Positions 8,074 through 12,583 of a stretch of DNA of 64,000 nucleotides are shown here, in pieces; the stretch's first letter is position 1, and every line of letters starts with the position of its first letter. The DNA is from Escherichia coli (GTDB taxonomy: Bacteria > Pseudomonadota > Gammaproteobacteria > Enterobacterales > Enterobacteriaceae). Both the position numbers and the translations under genes were made by a program. The stretch lies in assembly GCF_013315695.1 (NCBI RefSeq), contig NZ_CP054353.1; one strand, 5' to 3'. Below the pieces are notes generated by a model that saw only the letters and a list, made by a program, of their open reading frames with translations, was not told the DNA's origin and made no database searches.

Positions 8074-8973
8074 TTACGCGGAAAAAAAGGCGATGAGGAT
8101 CGGCACTAACAGGCTGAGAATAAAACCGTGAACAATCGCCGCCGGGACCATATCCAGCCCGCCAGTACGTTGAAGAACGGGCAGGGTGAAATCCATCGAC
8201 GTCGCACCGCATAAGCCCAGTGCAGTAGAGCGGCTACGGCGAATCAGCCCAGGGATTAACATAATAGCAATCAGCTCACGGGCCAGATCATTAAAAAACG
8301 CCGCGCTCCCGATTACTGGACCAAAAGATTCGGTCAATAAAATACCGGAAAGAGAATACCAGCCGAAACCGGAGGCCATTGCCAGCGCGGTATTGATGGG
8401 AAGATCAAGAATAAAGGCGTTAATTAAACCACCAATTAATGAACTGGCAACCACCACCACGGCGACAATCATTCCCCGGCGATTAAGGACAATCTGCTTT
8501 AAGGTCATGCCATTATTGCGCAACTGAATACCGACGAGGAAAAGTAGCAGAATTAAGGTGTATTCACTGGCTTTGGTCGCGTGTTGTAAGAAAGCCAGTC
8601 CACTCAGACCAATGGCAAAACCAATCACTACTACGCCGCACAGTTTTAGCGACTCCAGTGCCATCGCAATACGCGACGGGAGTTTTTCTTGATGATGGTG
8701 GTTGCGCCATGGCAGGCCGCGCTCCAGCCACAACAACGCAATAATATTGCAGAGTAAAATAATGGTAATGCTGACGGAGGAATAATGCAGAATCGCCAAC
8801 AGGTTACTGGCGAGGTTATCGAGAAACGCCAGACTGATACCCATAAAAAAGAGAATGAGGTAAACCATCCAACTTAATAGCTGATTAATAACTCTTAATG
8901 CAGCTTTTTGGCGAAGCGGAATGAGGTAACCCACAATCAGGGGAACCAGAATGATTAACAGCCCAGAAAACAT
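8074..8973 (-). CDS. ybjE: lysine exporter LysO (YbjE), inner-membrane protein
   Basis: ORF 8074..9021, highly hydrophobic; likely start MFSGLLIILVPL at 8973. Confidence 0.85.
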   Translation of the reverse strand: MFSGLLIILVPLIVGYLIPLRQKAALRVINQLLSWMVYLILFFMGISLAFLDNLASNLLAILHYSSVSITIILLCNIIALLWLERGLPWRNHHHQEKLPSRIAMALESLKLCGVVVIGFAIGLSGLAFLQHATKASEYTLILLLFLVGIQLRNNGMTLKQIVLNRRGMIVAVVVVASSLIGGLINAFILDLPINTALAMASGFGWYSLSGILLTESFGPVIGSAAFFNDLARELIAIMLIPGLIRRSRSTALGLCGATSMDFTLPVLQRTGGLDMVPAAIVHGFILSLLVPILIAFFSA

Positions 8974-9312
8974 GAAAACCCAGTCCTTGCAAAGATGAAG
9001 TCGAAATGCGCGATGACACACTACTGAAAGCGGAAGGACGAGTAAAGTTGCAATTAAAAGGAAATGTTATGCAAAAGGAGCAGTAGAGTATTCGTTTTCA
9101 TTTAAAGATGTTCTTGCGCTTTAATTACAAACCGCACCGGTGTTGGTGGCGTCAAAATCGCTGAAGCGTTCCCCGAAGGCCGGGGCAGCCCACATGGATG
9201 TGGGCTGAGGGCGCGTCTTACAAGGATAATGAGATGGACGCTCCAGATTTTACGGTATCAAAGTACCAGACTGGATCGTTGCAATACGTCCTGAAAAATT
9301 AGGGGCGTCCAC

Positions 9313-10338
9313 ATGAAAGTATCAACTCTTGGTATCGACCTGGCAAAGAACGTTTTTCAGCTTCATGGTGTCGATCATGAAGGCCATACTATTTTGCGTA
9401 AAAAGCTCACCCGGGCTAAGTTTGTTCAGTTTGTGATTCAACTGGAACCTTGTCTGATTGGCATGGAAGCCTGCTCATCCAGTCATTATTTTGCGCGATT
9501 ATTCACCCGCTATGGTCATGAGGTAAAACTCATACCTCCGCAGTATGTGAAGCCTTATGTGAAAACGAACAAGACGGATGCAGCAGATGCTGAAGCAATC
9601 TGCGAAGCGGTAACCCGTCCGAATATGCGTTTTGTTCAGATAAAAACCGAAGAGCAGCAGGCCGTTTTAGCGTTACACACTGAACGGGGAATACTTATCC
9701 GTGAGCGGATTGCCTGTGCCAATAGTTTAAGAGCCACACTTGCTGAGTTTGGTATTACGATTGCGGCCGGACAAAGCCATTTAACACGTGAGCTGCCAGC
9801 CATTCTGGAGGATGGCGAAAATGGTTTATCTCCCTTTGTCAGAACCAGCATCTACAGACAGTCTAAACATATCCGGGAACTTGAAGAACAAGTTAAACAG
9901 GTAGAAGAAGCTCTGGCCTCCTGGTATAGAACGCAGGAAGCCTGCCAGAGAATGGCCAAGATCCCGGGGGTTGGCATGCTAACGGCCACTTATGTGGTAG
10001 CAGCAGTGGGTAATGCCCGACAATTCAGTACCGCAAAGCAGTTCGCTTCATGGCTGGGGCTGACACCAAAGGAACATTCCAGCGGCGGGAAACAGCAACT
10101 GGGAGGGATCAGCAAACGTGGAGATGGATATTTCCGATACCTGCTGGTTCACGGCGCACGCGCACTTACCGCCTGGGTCAACCGAAACGGCGCGGTTGAG
10201 GAGAATTCCTGGCTTCAGGGACTCCTTGAGCGGAAGCACTACAATGTAGCTGTTGTCGCCATGGCGGCAAAAACAGCGAGGATCATGTGGTCAATGTTGT
10301 CACACAATACTGAATATCAACCTCGGCAGCTCGCCTGA
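9313..10338 (+). CDS. IS110-family (IS1111-subgroup-like) transposase
   Basis: 341-aa ORF MKVSTLGIDLAKNVFQLHG...EACSSSHYFAR...VKSNKTDAADAEAICEA; matches the N-terminal RuvC-like DEDD architecture of IS5075/IS1111-type transposases as I recall them. Confidence 0.85.
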   Translation: MKVSTLGIDLAKNVFQLHGVDHEGHTILRKKLTRAKFVQFVIQLEPCLIGMEACSSSHYFARLFTRYGHEVKLIPPQYVKPYVKTNKTDAADAEAICEAVTRPNMRFVQIKTEEQQAVLALHTERGILIRERIACANSLRATLAEFGITIAAGQSHLTRELPAILEDGENGLSPFVRTSIYRQSKHIRELEEQVKQVEEALASWYRTQEACQRMAKIPGVGMLTATYVVAAVGNARQFSTAKQFASWLGLTPKEHSSGGKQQLGGISKRGDGYFRYLLVHGARALTAWVNRNGAVEENSWLQGLLERKHYNVAVVAMAAKTARIMWSMLSHNTEYQPRQLA

Positions 10339-10800
10339 CACAAGGTCAGTCAATCTGACGAGGTGCTGAAAAAAAGTTAACGTCCTGGTAGGTGCAGGTG
10401 ACTTCAGAAGATGGCAAAACAGGTAAGACCGCAGGCAGGATACACCGAGAGGTAACAAGGGCAAGTTAGCCCGTAGAGGATGATTGGTACCTGCCTGGCG
10501 GATTTCATCATGGTTCGGGATAAAAATCCCATCAGAAACCGGATATATGGCTGCACCTACCCGTTTTATTACATAACTGAAGAAAGCATTGCATTCCGGG
10601 AGCGTCCATATATGTTACCTCGCGCCCGACCCGGTAGCCGTAAGGGATAAGCCGAGGGCACCGCGCAGCGGCGATTTTGTTCGCCAGAGCCCGGGGGTGC
10701 AGGGGGCGGCGGCGATTGGCCGCCCCCTGCGCGCTCCTTGCGCCAGTGATTATATGAAGCAATGCACATGACAGGAGCGCAACAGGATGAGAGACTGAAC
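10339..10800 (+). ncRNA. candidate IS-encoded guide (seekRNA/bridge-RNA-like) structured region at the 3' end of the transposase
   Basis: No credible ORF; GC-rich with strong hairpins, e.g. gcagggggcggc-ggcgattg-gccgccccctgc near 10700; IS1111-subgroup elements carry their guide RNA downstream of tnp. Confidence 0.3.
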
Positions 10801-10840
10801 TATTCTCGTTATTTTCGGACCTGATGACATTAATTAATTT

Positions 10841-10924
10841 TAAAATATCATCTTAAATACGCCAGTCACCACCAGTAGCCCAATCAGGAAAATAATCAAT
10901 ACAGCCCAGAGTATAATTTTCATT
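10841..10924 (-). CDS. yohP: small membrane protein YohP (27 aa)
   Basis: Minus-strand ORF translating to MKIILWAVLIIFLIGLLVVTGVFKMIF; too short for the ORF track. Confidence 0.85.
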
Positions 10925-11146
10925 GGCGTTCCTTTATTTGTGAGTGCTGAATAAGTATAGGAAAAAACGAAGCCCTTTGCCGCTATTCATAAACGATTAA
11001 GATAAATCGGAAGATATCATTCGCTTAGTGTATATTTTTCTGGATATGTCGTTTTATTGCCACTGATGTATTGCCACGCGAAACTAAAAAATATATCGCA
11101 ACACACGGTAATCTCCGCGCACCTTTTCTTACCTGATTATTCCCCC

Positions 11147-12583
11147 ATGAATCGTGATTCTTTTTATCCAGCCATCGCCTGTTTTCCGCTGTTACTGATG
11201 CTAGCCGGGTGTGCGCCTATGCATGAAACCCGCCAGGCGTTAAGCCAGCAAACACCCGCGGCACAAGTTGACACCGCATTACCCACGGCGCTGAAAAATG
11301 GTTGGCCAGACAGCCAATGGTGGCTGGAGTATCACGATAATCAACTCACCTCATTAATTAATAACGCACTACAGAACGCACCGGATATGCAGGTGGCTGA
11401 ACAGCGCATTCAGCTGGCTGAAGCCCAGGCGAAGGCAGTTGCCACTCAGGATGGTCCACAGCTCGACTTTTCTGCGGATATGGAGCGGCAAAAAATGTCG
11501 GCAGAAGGGTTAATGGGGCCGTTTGCTTTGAACGATCCTGCCGCAGGTACGACCGGTCCGTGGTACACCAACGATACTTTTGGCTTAACGGCGGGCTGGC
11601 ATCTCGATATCTGGGGAAAGACTCGGGCGGAGGTTACTGCTCGCCTCGGTACGGTTAAAGCACGGGCGGCGGAACGCGAGCAAACCCGCCAATTGCTGGC
11701 TGGCAGCGTAGCCCGCCTGTACTGGGAGTGGCAAACCCAGGCGGCGTTAAACACGGTCTTACAGCAAATCGAAAAAGAGCAGAACACCATTATCGCCACC
11801 GATCGCCAGCTATATCAGAACGGGATTACTTCTGCAGTTGAAGGTGTGGAAACCGATATTAATGCCAGCAAAACCCGGCAGCAGCTCAACGATGTCGCGG
11901 GGAAAATGAAAATTATTGAGGCACGGTTAAGTGCGCTCACCAACCACCAGACAAAGTCATTGAAGCTTAAACCGGTCGCGTTGCCGAAAGTGGCAAGTCA
12001 GCTTCCTGATGAACTCGGGTACTCCTTACTGGCCCGGCGGGCAGATTTGCAGGCGGCGCACTGGTACGTTGAGTCATCGTTAAGCACTATTGATGCGGCA
12101 AAAGCGGCATTTTATCCTGACATCAACCTGATGGCCTTTCTGCAACAGGATGCGTTGCACTTAAGCGATCTGTTCCGTCATTCCGCGCAGCAAATGGGCG
12201 TTACGGCAGGCCTGACGCTACCCATTTTCGATAGTGGTCGTCTTAACGCCAATCTCGATATCGCAAAAGCCGAAAGCAACTTGTCTATCGCCAGCTACAA
12301 CAAAGCGGTGGTTGAAGCGGTAAATGACGTGGCGCGGGCGGCCAGCCAGGTTCAGACACTGGCGGAGAAAAACCAGCATCAGGCGCAAATTGAGCACGAT
12401 GCCTTGCGTGTGGTAGGTCTTGCGCAGGCGCGCTTTAACGCGGGCATCATTGCTGGTTCCCGCGTCAGCGAAGCCAGAATCCCCGCGCTGCGTGAGCGGG
12501 CCAATGGCCTGTTATTGCAAGGGCAGTGGCTGGATGCCTCCATTCAACTCACCGGTGCGCTGGGCGGGGGTTACAAACGCTGA
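11147..12583 (+). CDS. mdtQ: multidrug efflux outer-membrane factor lipoprotein (OprM/NodT family), apparently intact
   Basis: ORF 11057..12583; likely start MNRDSFYPAIACFPLLLMLAGC (lipobox) at 11147; OMF family features. Confidence 0.8.
   Translation: MNRDSFYPAIACFPLLLMLAGCAPMHETRQALSQQTPAAQVDTALPTALKNGWPDSQWWLEYHDNQLTSLINNALQNAPDMQVAEQRIQLAEAQAKAVATQDGPQLDFSADMERQKMSAEGLMGPFALNDPAAGTTGPWYTNDTFGLTAGWHLDIWGKTRAEVTARLGTVKARAAEREQTRQLLAGSVARLYWEWQTQAALNTVLQQIEKEQNTIIATDRQLYQNGITSAVEGVETDINASKTRQQLNDVAGKMKIIEARLSALTNHQTKSLKLKPVALPKVASQLPDELGYSLLARRADLQAAHWYVESSLSTIDAAKAAFYPDINLMAFLQQDALHLSDLFRHSAQQMGVTAGLTLPIFDSGRLNANLDIAKAESNLSIASYNKAVVEAVNDVARAASQVQTLAEKNQHQAQIEHDALRVVGLAQARFNAGIIAGSRVSEARIPALRERANGLLLQGQWLDASIQLTGALGGGYKR

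What the first reader, a model, noticed from the sequence alone, without database searches (positions are those of the whole stretch)
10339..10800. GC-rich structured 3' tail of the IS110/IS1111-family element: candidate guide RNA
About 460 bp downstream of the transposase has no plausible ORF but has high GC and strong hairpins, e.g. the 12-bp perfect stem gcagggggcggc/gccgccccctgc with an 8-nt loop near 10700. IS110-family recombinases use an element-encoded structured RNA to specify target and donor; in the IS1111 subgroup it lies 3' of the recombinase. Its target-binding loop would predict where this IS inserts, including the breakpoint seen here.
Basis: partly seen in the sequence, partly recalled or inferred. 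Interest (0 to 1): 0.5.

Follow-up and report, generated by a model that had tools for sequence, protein, structure and literature searches.

The report
ISEc81 guide RNA, hairpin lies outside
The insertion sequence here (ISEc81, IS1111 group) does encode a guide RNA after its transposase gene, as already predicted for this element, but the GC-rich hairpin that drew attention lies in the chromosomal repeat the element inserted into.

Summary
The transposase at 9313-10338 is 99% identical to ISEc81, an ISfinder element of the IS1111 group. Empty sites in other E. coli place the element at 9227/9228 to 10611/10612. Its 3' tail is therefore about 273 nt (10339-10611, 47.6% GC), not 460.

A covariance model built only from distant relatives (45-55% transposase identity) hits the 64-kb window once, at 10407-10560 (+), 114.8 bits, E 2e-29. 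The helices show compensatory changes. The target loop carries GAGGTAACA (10449-10457), complementary to the right flank, and AGGATG (10477-10482), identical to the left flank across the junction. This is the order published for IS1111 seekRNAs. In 51 relatives these segments follow each element's own flanks; donor-side segments follow the element's own ends.

The 12-bp hairpin (10699-10730) and the high GC (64%) lie outside the element. They belong to a conserved structured enterobacterial repeat of about 270 nt, which is the insertion target.

The two flanks come from different copies of that repeat, so the element sits at one end of a roughly 1.4-Mb inversion.

Durrant et al. 2024 already list a right-end bridge RNA for ISEc81. 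Verdict: real but already known.

The parts
9227..10612 (+). ISEc81 (IS110 family, IS1111 group), 1386 bp by the family's 7-nt/3-nt end convention. 9228-10611 is certainly element DNA. The AT at 9226-9227 and at 10612-10613 is a single AT in empty sites, so the ends are ambiguous by up to 2 nt.
   Evidence: Empty-site comparison with K-12 lysO-aqpZ and ATCC 8739 dusC-yohP. Transposase 99% identical to ISfinder ISEc81.
9234..9244 (+). Left subterminal inverted repeat ATGGACGCTCC, 7 nt inside the left end.
   Evidence: Best inverted repeat between the two ends. The same (T)ATGGAC... motif sits at the same place in about 50 relatives.
9313..10338 (+). Transposase/recombinase gene, 341 aa, intact. 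Contains the motif GLTPKEHSSG (GL-P----SG).
   Evidence: ORF list. Pfam DEDD_Tnp_IS110 (E 1e-14) and Transposase_20 (E 4.4e-24). RefSeq names it 'IS110 family RNA-guided transposase'.
10407..10560 (+). Guide RNA (long seekRNA / bridge RNA), 154 nt. It consists of a 5' conserved block, a target-binding stem-loop and a donor-binding stem-loop.
   Evidence: Only hit in the window of covariance model R1, built from 47 distant relatives with the window left out: 114.8 bits, E 2.1e-29, full length. Helices are 91.4% paired against 64.8% in shuffles; covariation score 0.679 against 0.193; 0 of 500 shuffles reach it.
10387..10397 (+). GGTAGGTGCAG, a possible outer stem pairing with CTGCACCTACC at 10551-10561. 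It would enclose the whole RNA.
   Evidence: Perfect 11-bp complementarity read from the sequence. The minimum-energy fold pairs part of it. Conservation in relatives was not tested because the 5' region aligns poorly.
10429..10501 (+). Target-binding stem-loop: outer stem CCGCAGGCAGG / CCTGCCTGGCGG, large internal loop, inner hairpin GGGC (10459-10462) / GCCC (10469-10472).
   Evidence: RNAalifold consensus with compensatory changes in nearly every pair.
10449..10457 (+). Top-strand target guide GAGGTAACA, the reverse complement of right-flank TGTTACCTC (10613-10621).
   Evidence: Exact 9-nt match. The homologous position in relatives matches each element's own right flank: at least 7 nt in 31 of 51, against a mean of 1.25 and a maximum of 5 with permuted flanks.
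10477..10482 (+). Bottom-strand target guide AGGATG, identical to the target's top strand across the insertion point: AGGA at 9223-9226 plus TG at 10613-10614.
   Evidence: The homologous position in relatives matches each element's own left flank plus 2 nt: at least 6 nt in 34 of 51, against a mean of 2.35 and a maximum of 9 with permuted flanks.
10505..10510 (+). Donor-side segment TCATCA, complementary to TGATGA. The left end reads TAATGA (5 of 6 match). In the free RNA it pairs with the 5' block GATGG (10410-10414).
   Evidence: the helix is 94.6% paired and 4 of its pairs show compensatory change. The variants CTATCA, ACATCA and GCATTA follow left ends TAATAG, TGATGT and CGATGC.
10543..10549 (+). 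Donor-side segment ATATATG: the last 5 nt of the right end (ATATA) plus the junction base T plus a conserved G.
   Evidence: The 5 nt equal the element's own right end in 49 of 50 relatives (permuted: mean 16, maximum 25). The sixth base follows the first base of the left end (T, C or A).
10589..10594 (+). TTGCAT, a -35-like hexamer in the conserved block CTTGCAAAA. In a circular copy it would lie 16 nt upstream of a TATAAT formed across the joined ends (10611-10612 plus 9227-9230).
   Evidence: Read from the sequence. The block is conserved in relatives. No sigma-70-like site was found on the + strand inside the element. A junction promoter is shown for ISEc11 (PMC11187229). For this element it is an inference.
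10599..10609 (+). Right subterminal inverted repeat GGAGCGTCCAT, 3 nt inside the right end.
9131..9226 (+). Not part of the element: left half of the roughly 270-nt chromosomal structured repeat (the lysO-aqpZ copy). It includes the hairpin GCCCACATGGATGTGGGC at 9189-9206.
10613..10795 (+). Not part of the element: right half of the same repeat family (the dusC-yohP copy).
   Evidence: 99.7% identical to the ATCC 8739 empty site. Present in nearly all E. coli genomes. The hairpin is kept with GC-to-AU swaps in Klebsiella copies.

Best explanation
The element at 9227-10612 is ISEc81, a member of the IS1111 group of the IS110 family. Its 3' non-coding region encodes a guide RNA of about 154 nt (10407-10560, + strand) of the seekRNA / bridge RNA kind.

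The RNA has two stem-loops. The internal loop of the first carries GAGGUAACA, which would pair with the top strand just right of the insertion point. It also carries AGGAUG, which would pair with the bottom strand across the insertion point. Together these set the insertion site ...ACAAGGA|TGTTACCTC....

Segments flanking the second stem-loop match the element's own ends: UCAUCA to the left end and AUAUAUG to the right end plus the junction. They would hold the joined ends of a circular copy.

The DEDD recombinase bound to this RNA would then join donor and target at the shared T(G/A) dinucleotide.

Shown here: the element's identity and boundaries; conservation and covariation of the RNA structure; and co-variation of the guide segments with flanks and ends across about 50 diverged relatives.

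Inferred from published work on ISEc11, ISPa11, ISKpn4 and IS621: that the RNA is made, binds the recombinase and is required for transposition, and that it is transcribed from a promoter formed at the circle junction.

The GC-rich hairpin at 10699-10730 is not part of this. It is one helix of the chromosomal repeat that the element targets.
For: Identity: 99% to ISfinder ISEc81; both Pfam domains of the family.

Boundaries: empty sites; subterminal repeats 7 and 3 nt from the ends, as in relatives.

RNA: a model built without the window hits once in 64 kb, at 10407-10560 (+), 114.8 bits, E 2e-29. 19 of 21-22 predicted pairs show compensatory change. Cells are 91.4% paired against 64.8% in shuffles and at most 45% when partners are slid.

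Target guides: exact 9-nt and 6-nt matches to this insertion's own flanks, in the published IS1111 order (top-strand match 5' of the bottom-strand match, overlapping in the target) (PMC11187229).

Across 51 non-redundant relatives with unrelated flanks, the same two positions match each element's own flanks in 31 and 34 cases. Permuted flanks give means of 1.25 and 2.35 over 1000 permutations.

Donor guides: 49 of 50 exact matches to the element's own right end.

Specificity: 179 of 5426 E. coli genomes carry the element, and 173 hold a copy with this repeat on both sides.

Prior prediction: Durrant et al. 2024 list ISEc81 with a bridge RNA in the right end.
Against: There is no expression or binding data for this element; none can be obtained with these tools. 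Rfam 15 gives no match for the RNA. That is only the absence of any Rfam match, and I do not know whether Rfam holds a family for these RNAs.

The bottom-strand guide match is short: 6 nt here, and only 5 nt against the K-12-type target ACAGGGATG.

The single-sequence minimum-energy fold of the whole tail differs in part from the consensus structure.

The left-end segment UCAUCA is also one strand of an RNA helix. Its covariation with the left end (4.92 of 6 against 4.62 permuted) is weak, so its role as a DNA guide is less certain than that of the other three segments.
Confidence: 0.9

Rival explanations
1. The GC-rich hairpin region (10612-10800) is the guide RNA or another functional part of the element.
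For: It lies directly after the element, is strongly structured and has a perfect 12-bp stem.
Against: It is present, 93-99.7% identical, at empty sites in K-12 and ATCC 8739 and in nearly all 5426 E. coli genomes, of which only 179 carry the element. The subterminal repeat and the conserved end GTCCATATA stop at 10612. The covariance model does not extend into it. It is conserved as part of an independent repeat in Klebsiella and Kluyvera.
Confidence: 0.02
2. The conserved 3' tail acts only as DNA (recombinase binding sites, a promoter part) and no RNA is involved.
For: Part of the tail is DNA-level signal: the subterminal repeat and the -35-like TTGCAT block. No internal promoter was found for a separate RNA gene.
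Against: The helices keep pairing through changes on both sides, including G-U pairs, which is a signature of RNA. Short segments follow unrelated flanking DNA on both strands. A double-stranded protein-binding site has no reason to do that. For relatives, the RNA has been purified with the transposase and shown to be required (PMC11187229).
Confidence: 0.04
3. The match between guide segments and flanks in this window is chance or an artefact of the rearrangement. This copy would be an inactive relic sitting at an inversion breakpoint.
For: The flanks come from two different chromosomal sites, so this copy did not insert between these two flanks as they now stand. The bottom-strand match is only 6 nt.
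Against: Both parental sites are copies of the same repeat with the same target sequence, so the match holds for either parent. The gene is intact and the RNA scores 114.8 bits. The family-wide permutation test rules out chance.
Confidence: 0.04

Closest known systems
ISEc81 as catalogued in ISfinder and analysed in Durrant et al. 2024 (Nature 630:984) and Siddiquee et al. 2024 (Nat Commun 15:5235)
   Same: Same element: 99% transposase identity. Durrant's supplementary table lists ISEc81 as IS1111 group with the predicted bridge RNA in the right end.
   Different: I found no published description of its guide segments, target or structure. The three papers that name ISEc81 only list it among mobile-element hits. 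This window's copy differs from the ISfinder protein by about 4 residues.
ISEc11 seekRNA (Siddiquee et al. 2024, PMC11187229)
   Same: IS1111 group with subterminal repeats. The non-coding region lies downstream of the transposase gene. The long RNA is 154 nt in ISEc11, and the model hit here is also 154 nt. The top-strand match lies 5' of the bottom-strand match and the two overlap in the target. No internal promoter is present, and a promoter forms at the circle junction.
   Different: A different subgroup and a different target (GTGAAAATACTG for ISEc11). ISEc11 is tested experimentally; ISEc81 is not.
IS621 bridge RNA (Durrant et al. 2024; Hiraizumi et al. 2024)
   Same: A two-loop RNA in which one loop reads both strands of the target and the other reads the donor, around a shared core dinucleotide, working with a DEDD recombinase.
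   Different: IS621 belongs to the IS110 group. Its RNA is encoded in the left end, upstream of the gene, and the guide order is reversed. Its donor loop is a simple internal loop. Here the donor segments lie in a multi-branch junction, as Durrant et al. note for many IS1111 members. The subterminal repeats are long here (11 bp) and 2-3 bp in IS621.
ISPa11 and other IS1111-group elements that target repeats (REP, attC, Tn21 ends)
   Same: Insertion at one fixed position in a repeated, hairpin-forming chromosomal sequence.
   Different: The target here is a loop in a structured repeat of about 270 nt, present in about 3 copies per E. coli genome. It is not a short REP, an attC site or a transposon end.
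Rfam RF01731 TwoAYGGAY RNA (Weinberg et al. 2010), for the flanking repeat only
   Same: Full-length alignment to the model: an outer stem enclosing two hairpins, the first with the loop AUGGAU.
   Different: Scores of 30.6-33.1 bits are below the gathering score of 43. The second loop is AGGGAY, not AYGGAY. Klebsiella copies give no match. The element extends about 110 nt beyond the model, and that extension includes the GC hairpin.

Membership tests
IS110 family, IS1111 group insertion sequence | DEDD (RuvC-like) N-terminal transposase domain | tested here: met
   Pfam PF01548 DEDD_Tnp_IS110, residues 6-146, E 1e-14.
IS110 family, IS1111 group insertion sequence | C-terminal domain PF02371 with the GL-P----S(T)G motif | tested here: met
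   PF02371, residues 211-289, E 4.4e-24. GLTPKEHSSG is in the translation. Motif as defined in PMC11187229.
IS110 family, IS1111 group insertion sequence | Subterminal inverted repeats of 7-17 bp, set in from the ends | tested here: met
   ATGGACGCTCC 9234-9244 and GGAGCGTCCAT 10599-10609, 7 and 3 nt from ends fixed by empty sites.
IS110 family, IS1111 group insertion sequence | The long non-coding region lies downstream of the transposase gene | tested here: met
   273-274 nt downstream against 85-86 nt upstream.
IS110 family, IS1111 group insertion sequence | Site-specific insertion without a real target duplication | tested here: met
   The same position in the lysO-aqpZ, dusC-yohP and yegH-asmA copies of one repeat. 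Only an ambiguous AT is shared.
IS110 family, IS1111 group insertion sequence | Circular intermediate with a promoter formed at the joined ends | not testable with these tools
   The sequence predicts TTGCAT, 16 nt, then TATAAT across the joined ends. No experiment.
seekRNA / bridge RNA | A conserved structured RNA encoded in the long non-coding region, supported by covariation | tested here: met
   (114.8 bits; 91.4% paired; covariation 0.679 against 0.193).
seekRNA / bridge RNA | [quoted passage not shown] | tested here: met
   GAGGTAACA 10449-10457 and AGGATG 10477-10482. Family-wide co-variation with each element's own flanks.
seekRNA / bridge RNA | Segments matching the element's own ends (donor recognition) | tested here: met
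   The right-end segment is exact in 49 of 50 relatives. The left-end segment is weaker and is also part of an RNA helix.
seekRNA / bridge RNA | The RNA is expressed, binds the recombinase and is required for circle formation and transposition | not testable with these tools
   Shown for ISEc11, ISPa11, ISKpn4, ISPst6 and IS621. Not shown for ISEc81.
Rfam RF01731 TwoAYGGAY (flanking repeat, includes 10612-10800) | Score at or above the curated gathering score of 43 bits | tested here: not met
   30.6, 30.9 and 33.1 bits for three E. coli copies; no match in Klebsiella copies.
Rfam RF01731 TwoAYGGAY (flanking repeat, includes 10612-10800) | Two hairpins with AYGGAY in the terminal loops, enclosed by an outer stem | tested here: inconclusive
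   Hairpin 1 has the loop AUGGAU. Hairpin 2 has the loop AGGGAU or AGGGAC. An outer stem is present.

The most novel reading that the evidence does not exclude
The GC-rich sequence flanking the element is a previously undescribed structured element of about 270 nt in Enterobacteriaceae. It occurs about 3 times per genome in E. coli and 13 times in one Klebsiella chromosome, and it is distantly related to the orphan TwoAYGGAY RNA motif. ISEc81 has specialised its guide RNA to insert into the second loop of that element. Because the landing sites are repeated, pairs of occupied sites then drive megabase inversions such as the one seen here. This would give the orphan motif its first biological context.
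Probability: 0.3. Interest if true: 0.4.

Novelty: already known. Interest (0 to 1): 0.2.

Why it matters
As a discovery it matters little. RNA-guided target choice by IS1111-group elements was shown in 2024, and ISEc81 is already listed with a predicted right-end bridge RNA.

The work has practical value in three ways.
- It gives exact guide and target assignments for a natural E. coli element that could be tested or reprogrammed.
- It offers an independent check that guide segments follow flanks and ends across about 50 diverged relatives.
- It corrects the annotation: the eye-catching hairpin belongs to the host repeat.

The side observations may deserve a separate look. They are the conserved structured repeat used as a landing site, and the roughly 1.4-Mb inversion bounded by two copies of the element.

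Tried and rejected
- **Rfam scan of 8900-11200 at E up to 10.** Only noise such as microRNA and snoRNA models. No family matched the guide RNA.
- **Single-sequence folding of the whole tail.** It recovers the target stem-loop, but other parts differ from the consensus, so I relied on the comparative structure.
- **Hairpin as an intrinsic terminator for the transposase gene.** No T-run follows it on either strand, and the scan found no terminator there.
- **Internal promoter for the RNA.** None on the + strand inside the element.
- **Small ORFs in 10339-10800.** All cross the boundary of the element, so I rejected them as genes; they were not tested by homology.
- **Filing the flanking repeat under TwoAYGGAY.** The scores stay below the gathering score, and Klebsiella copies do not match.
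- **The small hairpin GGU-AAG-ACC in the 5' block.** It has some support (89% paired) but few informative changes. An alternative that extends the target stem was not tested.
- **The outer stem 10387-10397 / 10551-10561.** It could not be tested across relatives because that region aligns poorly.
- **Literature search for 'ISEc81'.** Only lists of mobile elements were found.

Full report
**What is in the window.** The surroundings are E. coli chromosome. hcp and lysO lie on the minus strand up to about 9021. A 341-aa ORF follows at 9313-10338 (+), then yohP (-), mdtQ and yohF. RefSeq annotates the ORF as 'IS110 family transposase', and in newer records as 'IS110 family RNA-guided transposase'. 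Pfam finds both family domains, DEDD_Tnp_IS110 and Transposase_20. The protein is 99% identical to the ISfinder entry ISEc81, as reproduced in the supplement of Siddiquee et al. 2024. It is 68% identical to ISYen1 and 65% to ISEch3.

**Where the element ends.**
- Megablast of the two junctions against 5426 complete E. coli genomes shows that almost every genome matches the flanks but not the element.
- Alignment to K-12 (lysO-aqpZ) and ATCC 8739 (dusC-yohP) places the last chromosomal base on the left at 9227 and the first on the right at 10612. A single AT in the empty site appears on both sides.
- The element is therefore 9228-10611, plus one copy of that AT. That makes 1386 bp, or 9227-10612 by the convention used for IS1111 members.
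- An 11-bp subterminal inverted repeat sits 7 and 3 nt inside these ends: ATGGACGCTCC at 9234-9244 and GGAGCGTCCAT at 10599-10609.
- The 3' non-coding tail is thus 273-274 nt, not 460.
- Its GC content is 47.6%. The 64% GC part, 10612-10800, is chromosomal.

It is real: stem 10699-10710 / 10719-10730 with an 8-nt loop. It lies 87 nt beyond the end of the element. It is present at empty sites, so it cannot be part of the element or of its RNA.

**Is there a guide RNA in the true tail?** I first looked for short matches between the tail and the reconstructed target.
- GAGGTAACA (10449-10457) is the exact reverse complement of TGTTACCTC, the first 9 nt of the right flank.
- AGGATG (10477-10482) equals the target's top strand across the insertion point, AGGA|TG.
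- The top-strand match is 5' of the bottom-strand match, and the two overlap in the target.
- Siddiquee et al. report exactly this arrangement for IS1111-type seekRNAs.
- Both segments lie on opposite sides of a large internal loop in a stem-loop at 10429-10501.

**Comparative test.**
- A scan of one genome per species returned 80 loci encoding relatives, most with 45-55% transposase identity.
- Nearly all carry the same end architecture: TAATGG.ATGGAC... or TGATGG.GTGGAC... on the left, and ...GTCCATATA or ...GTCCACACA on the right. Their flanks are unrelated.
- In each element, a segment about 164-176 nt from the right end is the reverse complement of its own right flank. A segment about 136-150 nt from the right end equals its own left flank plus the first 2 nt of the right flank.
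- Among 51 non-redundant elements, the first match is at least 7 nt in 31 and the second at least 6 nt in 34. With flanks permuted among elements, the means are 1.25 (maximum 5) and 2.35 (maximum 9) over 1000 permutations.
- This is direct evidence that these loop positions specify the insertion site throughout the subgroup.

**Structure.**
- An alignment of the last 226 nt of 50 elements gives a consensus of two stem-loops. 19 of the 21 predicted pairs keep pairing through changes on both sides.
- On a second alignment without the window, 91.4% of cells are paired against 64.8% in shuffles. The covariation score is 0.679 against 0.193 in shuffles and at most 0.133 when partners are slid. None of 500 shuffles reaches the observed value.
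- A covariance model was built from those 47 distant relatives, leaving out the window and its 70% relative. It hits the 64-kb window exactly once: 10407-10560 (+), full length, 114.8 bits, E 2.1e-29.
- The length, 154 nt, equals that of the long seekRNA of ISEc11.

**Donor side.** The second stem-loop has helices at 10512-10515 / 10537-10540 and 10518-10521 / 10525-10528. Conserved single-stranded segments flank it.
- The 3' segment (ATATATG, 10543-10549) equals the last 5 nt of the element's own right end in 49 of 50 relatives. Examples are ACACA, ACAAA, ATGTA, ATCTA, ATACG and AGACA; with permuted ends the mean is 16 and the maximum 25. Its sixth base follows the first base of the left end, which in turn equals the first base of the right flank.
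- The 5' segment (TCATCA, 10505-10510) is complementary to the left end. This fit is looser: 4.92 of 6 against 4.62 permuted.
- That 5' segment also forms a helix with a 5' conserved block (GATGG, 10410-10414). The helix is 94.6% paired and 4 of its pairs show compensatory change. Three sequences therefore move together: the block, the segment and the left end.
- Durrant et al. note that in many IS1111 members the donor-binding nucleotides lie in a multi-branch loop. This fits.

**Expression.** No sigma-70-like site lies on the + strand inside the element. Joining the ends would create TTGCAT, a 16-nt spacer and TATAAT across the junction. The TTGCA(A/T) block is conserved in relatives. A junction promoter is documented for ISEc11. 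For ISEc81 this remains an inference.

**The breakpoint.**
- The left flank is the lysO-side half of one repeat copy. The right flank is the yohP-side half of another copy.
- In SMS-3-5 the reciprocal product exists: yohJ-dusC-ISEc81-aqpZ-ybjD at 2.31 Mb. The lysO-ISEc81-yohP junction is at 0.91 Mb.
- The window therefore shows one end of an inversion of about 1.4 Mb between two occupied copies of the target repeat.
- About 92-101 genomes carry these junctions.
- Recombination between the two inverted copies of the element is the ordinary explanation. Catalysis by the recombinase itself cannot be excluded with these data.

**What 10612-10800 is.**
- Together with 9131-9226 it forms a repeat of about 270 nt. 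It is uninterrupted in K-12 and ATCC 8739 and more than 90% conserved in Kluyvera. It is also present in Klebsiella, with 13 places in one chromosome-sized K. pneumoniae record filed among the plasmids.
- The intact copy folds with z -4.88.
- Nine copies from three genera give 81 predicted pairs, 16 of them with compensatory change. These include GC-to-AU swaps in the 12-bp hairpin.
- Rfam gives a full-length but sub-threshold match to TwoAYGGAY: 30.6-33.1 bits against a gathering score of 43, in E. coli copies only.
- ISEc81 inserts in the loop of the second hairpin, C-AGGGA|U-G.
- I record this as a lead, not as a classification.

**Novelty.**
- ISEc81 is catalogued in ISfinder.
- The mechanism was established in 2024 (PMC11187229, PMC11208160, PMC11208158).
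- Durrant et al. list ISEc81 as 'RE, IS1111', meaning a bridge RNA predicted in its right end.
- The element occurs in 179 of 5426 complete E. coli genomes, at a median of 2 copies.
- The finding is therefore real but already known. This analysis adds only the explicit guide and target assignments and the family-wide co-variation.

Noticed in passing
window 9131-9226 and 10613-10795; L003 2212-2495; L004 1395-1680; L089-L094: The insertion target is a conserved, highly structured repeat of about 270 nt, found in E. coli (about 3 copies), Kluyvera and Klebsiella (13 places in one chromosome). It has 81 predicted pairs, 16 with compensatory change, and z -4.88. Rfam gives only a sub-threshold, full-length match to the orphan motif TwoAYGGAY (30.6-33.1 bits, gathering score 43). 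No annotation lies over it in K-12.
   Followed up: partly
window 9021-9227 against 10612-10930; L087 (SMS-3-5, 2.31 Mb): The element sits at one end of an inversion of about 1.4 Mb. lysO-IS-yohP is seen here, and the reciprocal dusC-IS-aqpZ is found in the same genomes; about 92-101 of 5426 genomes carry these junctions. Whether RecA or the RNA-guided recombinase made the inversion is open.
   Followed up: partly
window 10410-10414 with 10505-10510, and left end 9227-9232; alignment A3 columns 3-8 with 129-134: A 5' block of the RNA (UGAUGG in most relatives) has the sequence of the element's left end and pairs with the segment complementary to that end. The block, the segment and the left end co-vary (for example TGATAG / CTATCA / TAATAG in L053 and L055). 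This suggests the left-end guide is masked in the free RNA, or that both DNA strands of the left end are read.
   Followed up: partly
window 9220-9227 against L003 2304-2312: The left flank here reads ACAAGGAT, where K-12, ATCC 8739 and Kluyvera have ACAGGGAT. The A gives a 6-nt match to the bottom-strand guide instead of 5 nt.
   Followed up: no
L009 (Pectobacterium aroidearum, 70% relative): It also sits in a hairpin loop, GCCGC-AGGGA|C-GCGGC. Its top-strand guide matches the flank (TTCGCCG), but the junction bases and the bottom-strand guide do not. This may be an off-target or a diverged site.
   Followed up: no
L088 2501-2849 (E. coli plasmid NZ_JBSQBR010000002.1): A 349-bp fragment, 93% identical to the 3' end of the gene plus the guide-RNA region (element positions 1011-1359), lies without a transposase gene next to an IS3 fragment. 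It is probably a truncated relic.
   Followed up: no
window 11057-12583: The mdtQ reading frame is open in the window. The IAI39 record annotates mdtQ as a pseudogene with an internal stop, so the window is probably not from IAI39 itself. The junction queries are 100% identical to strain MS 21-1.
   Followed up: no
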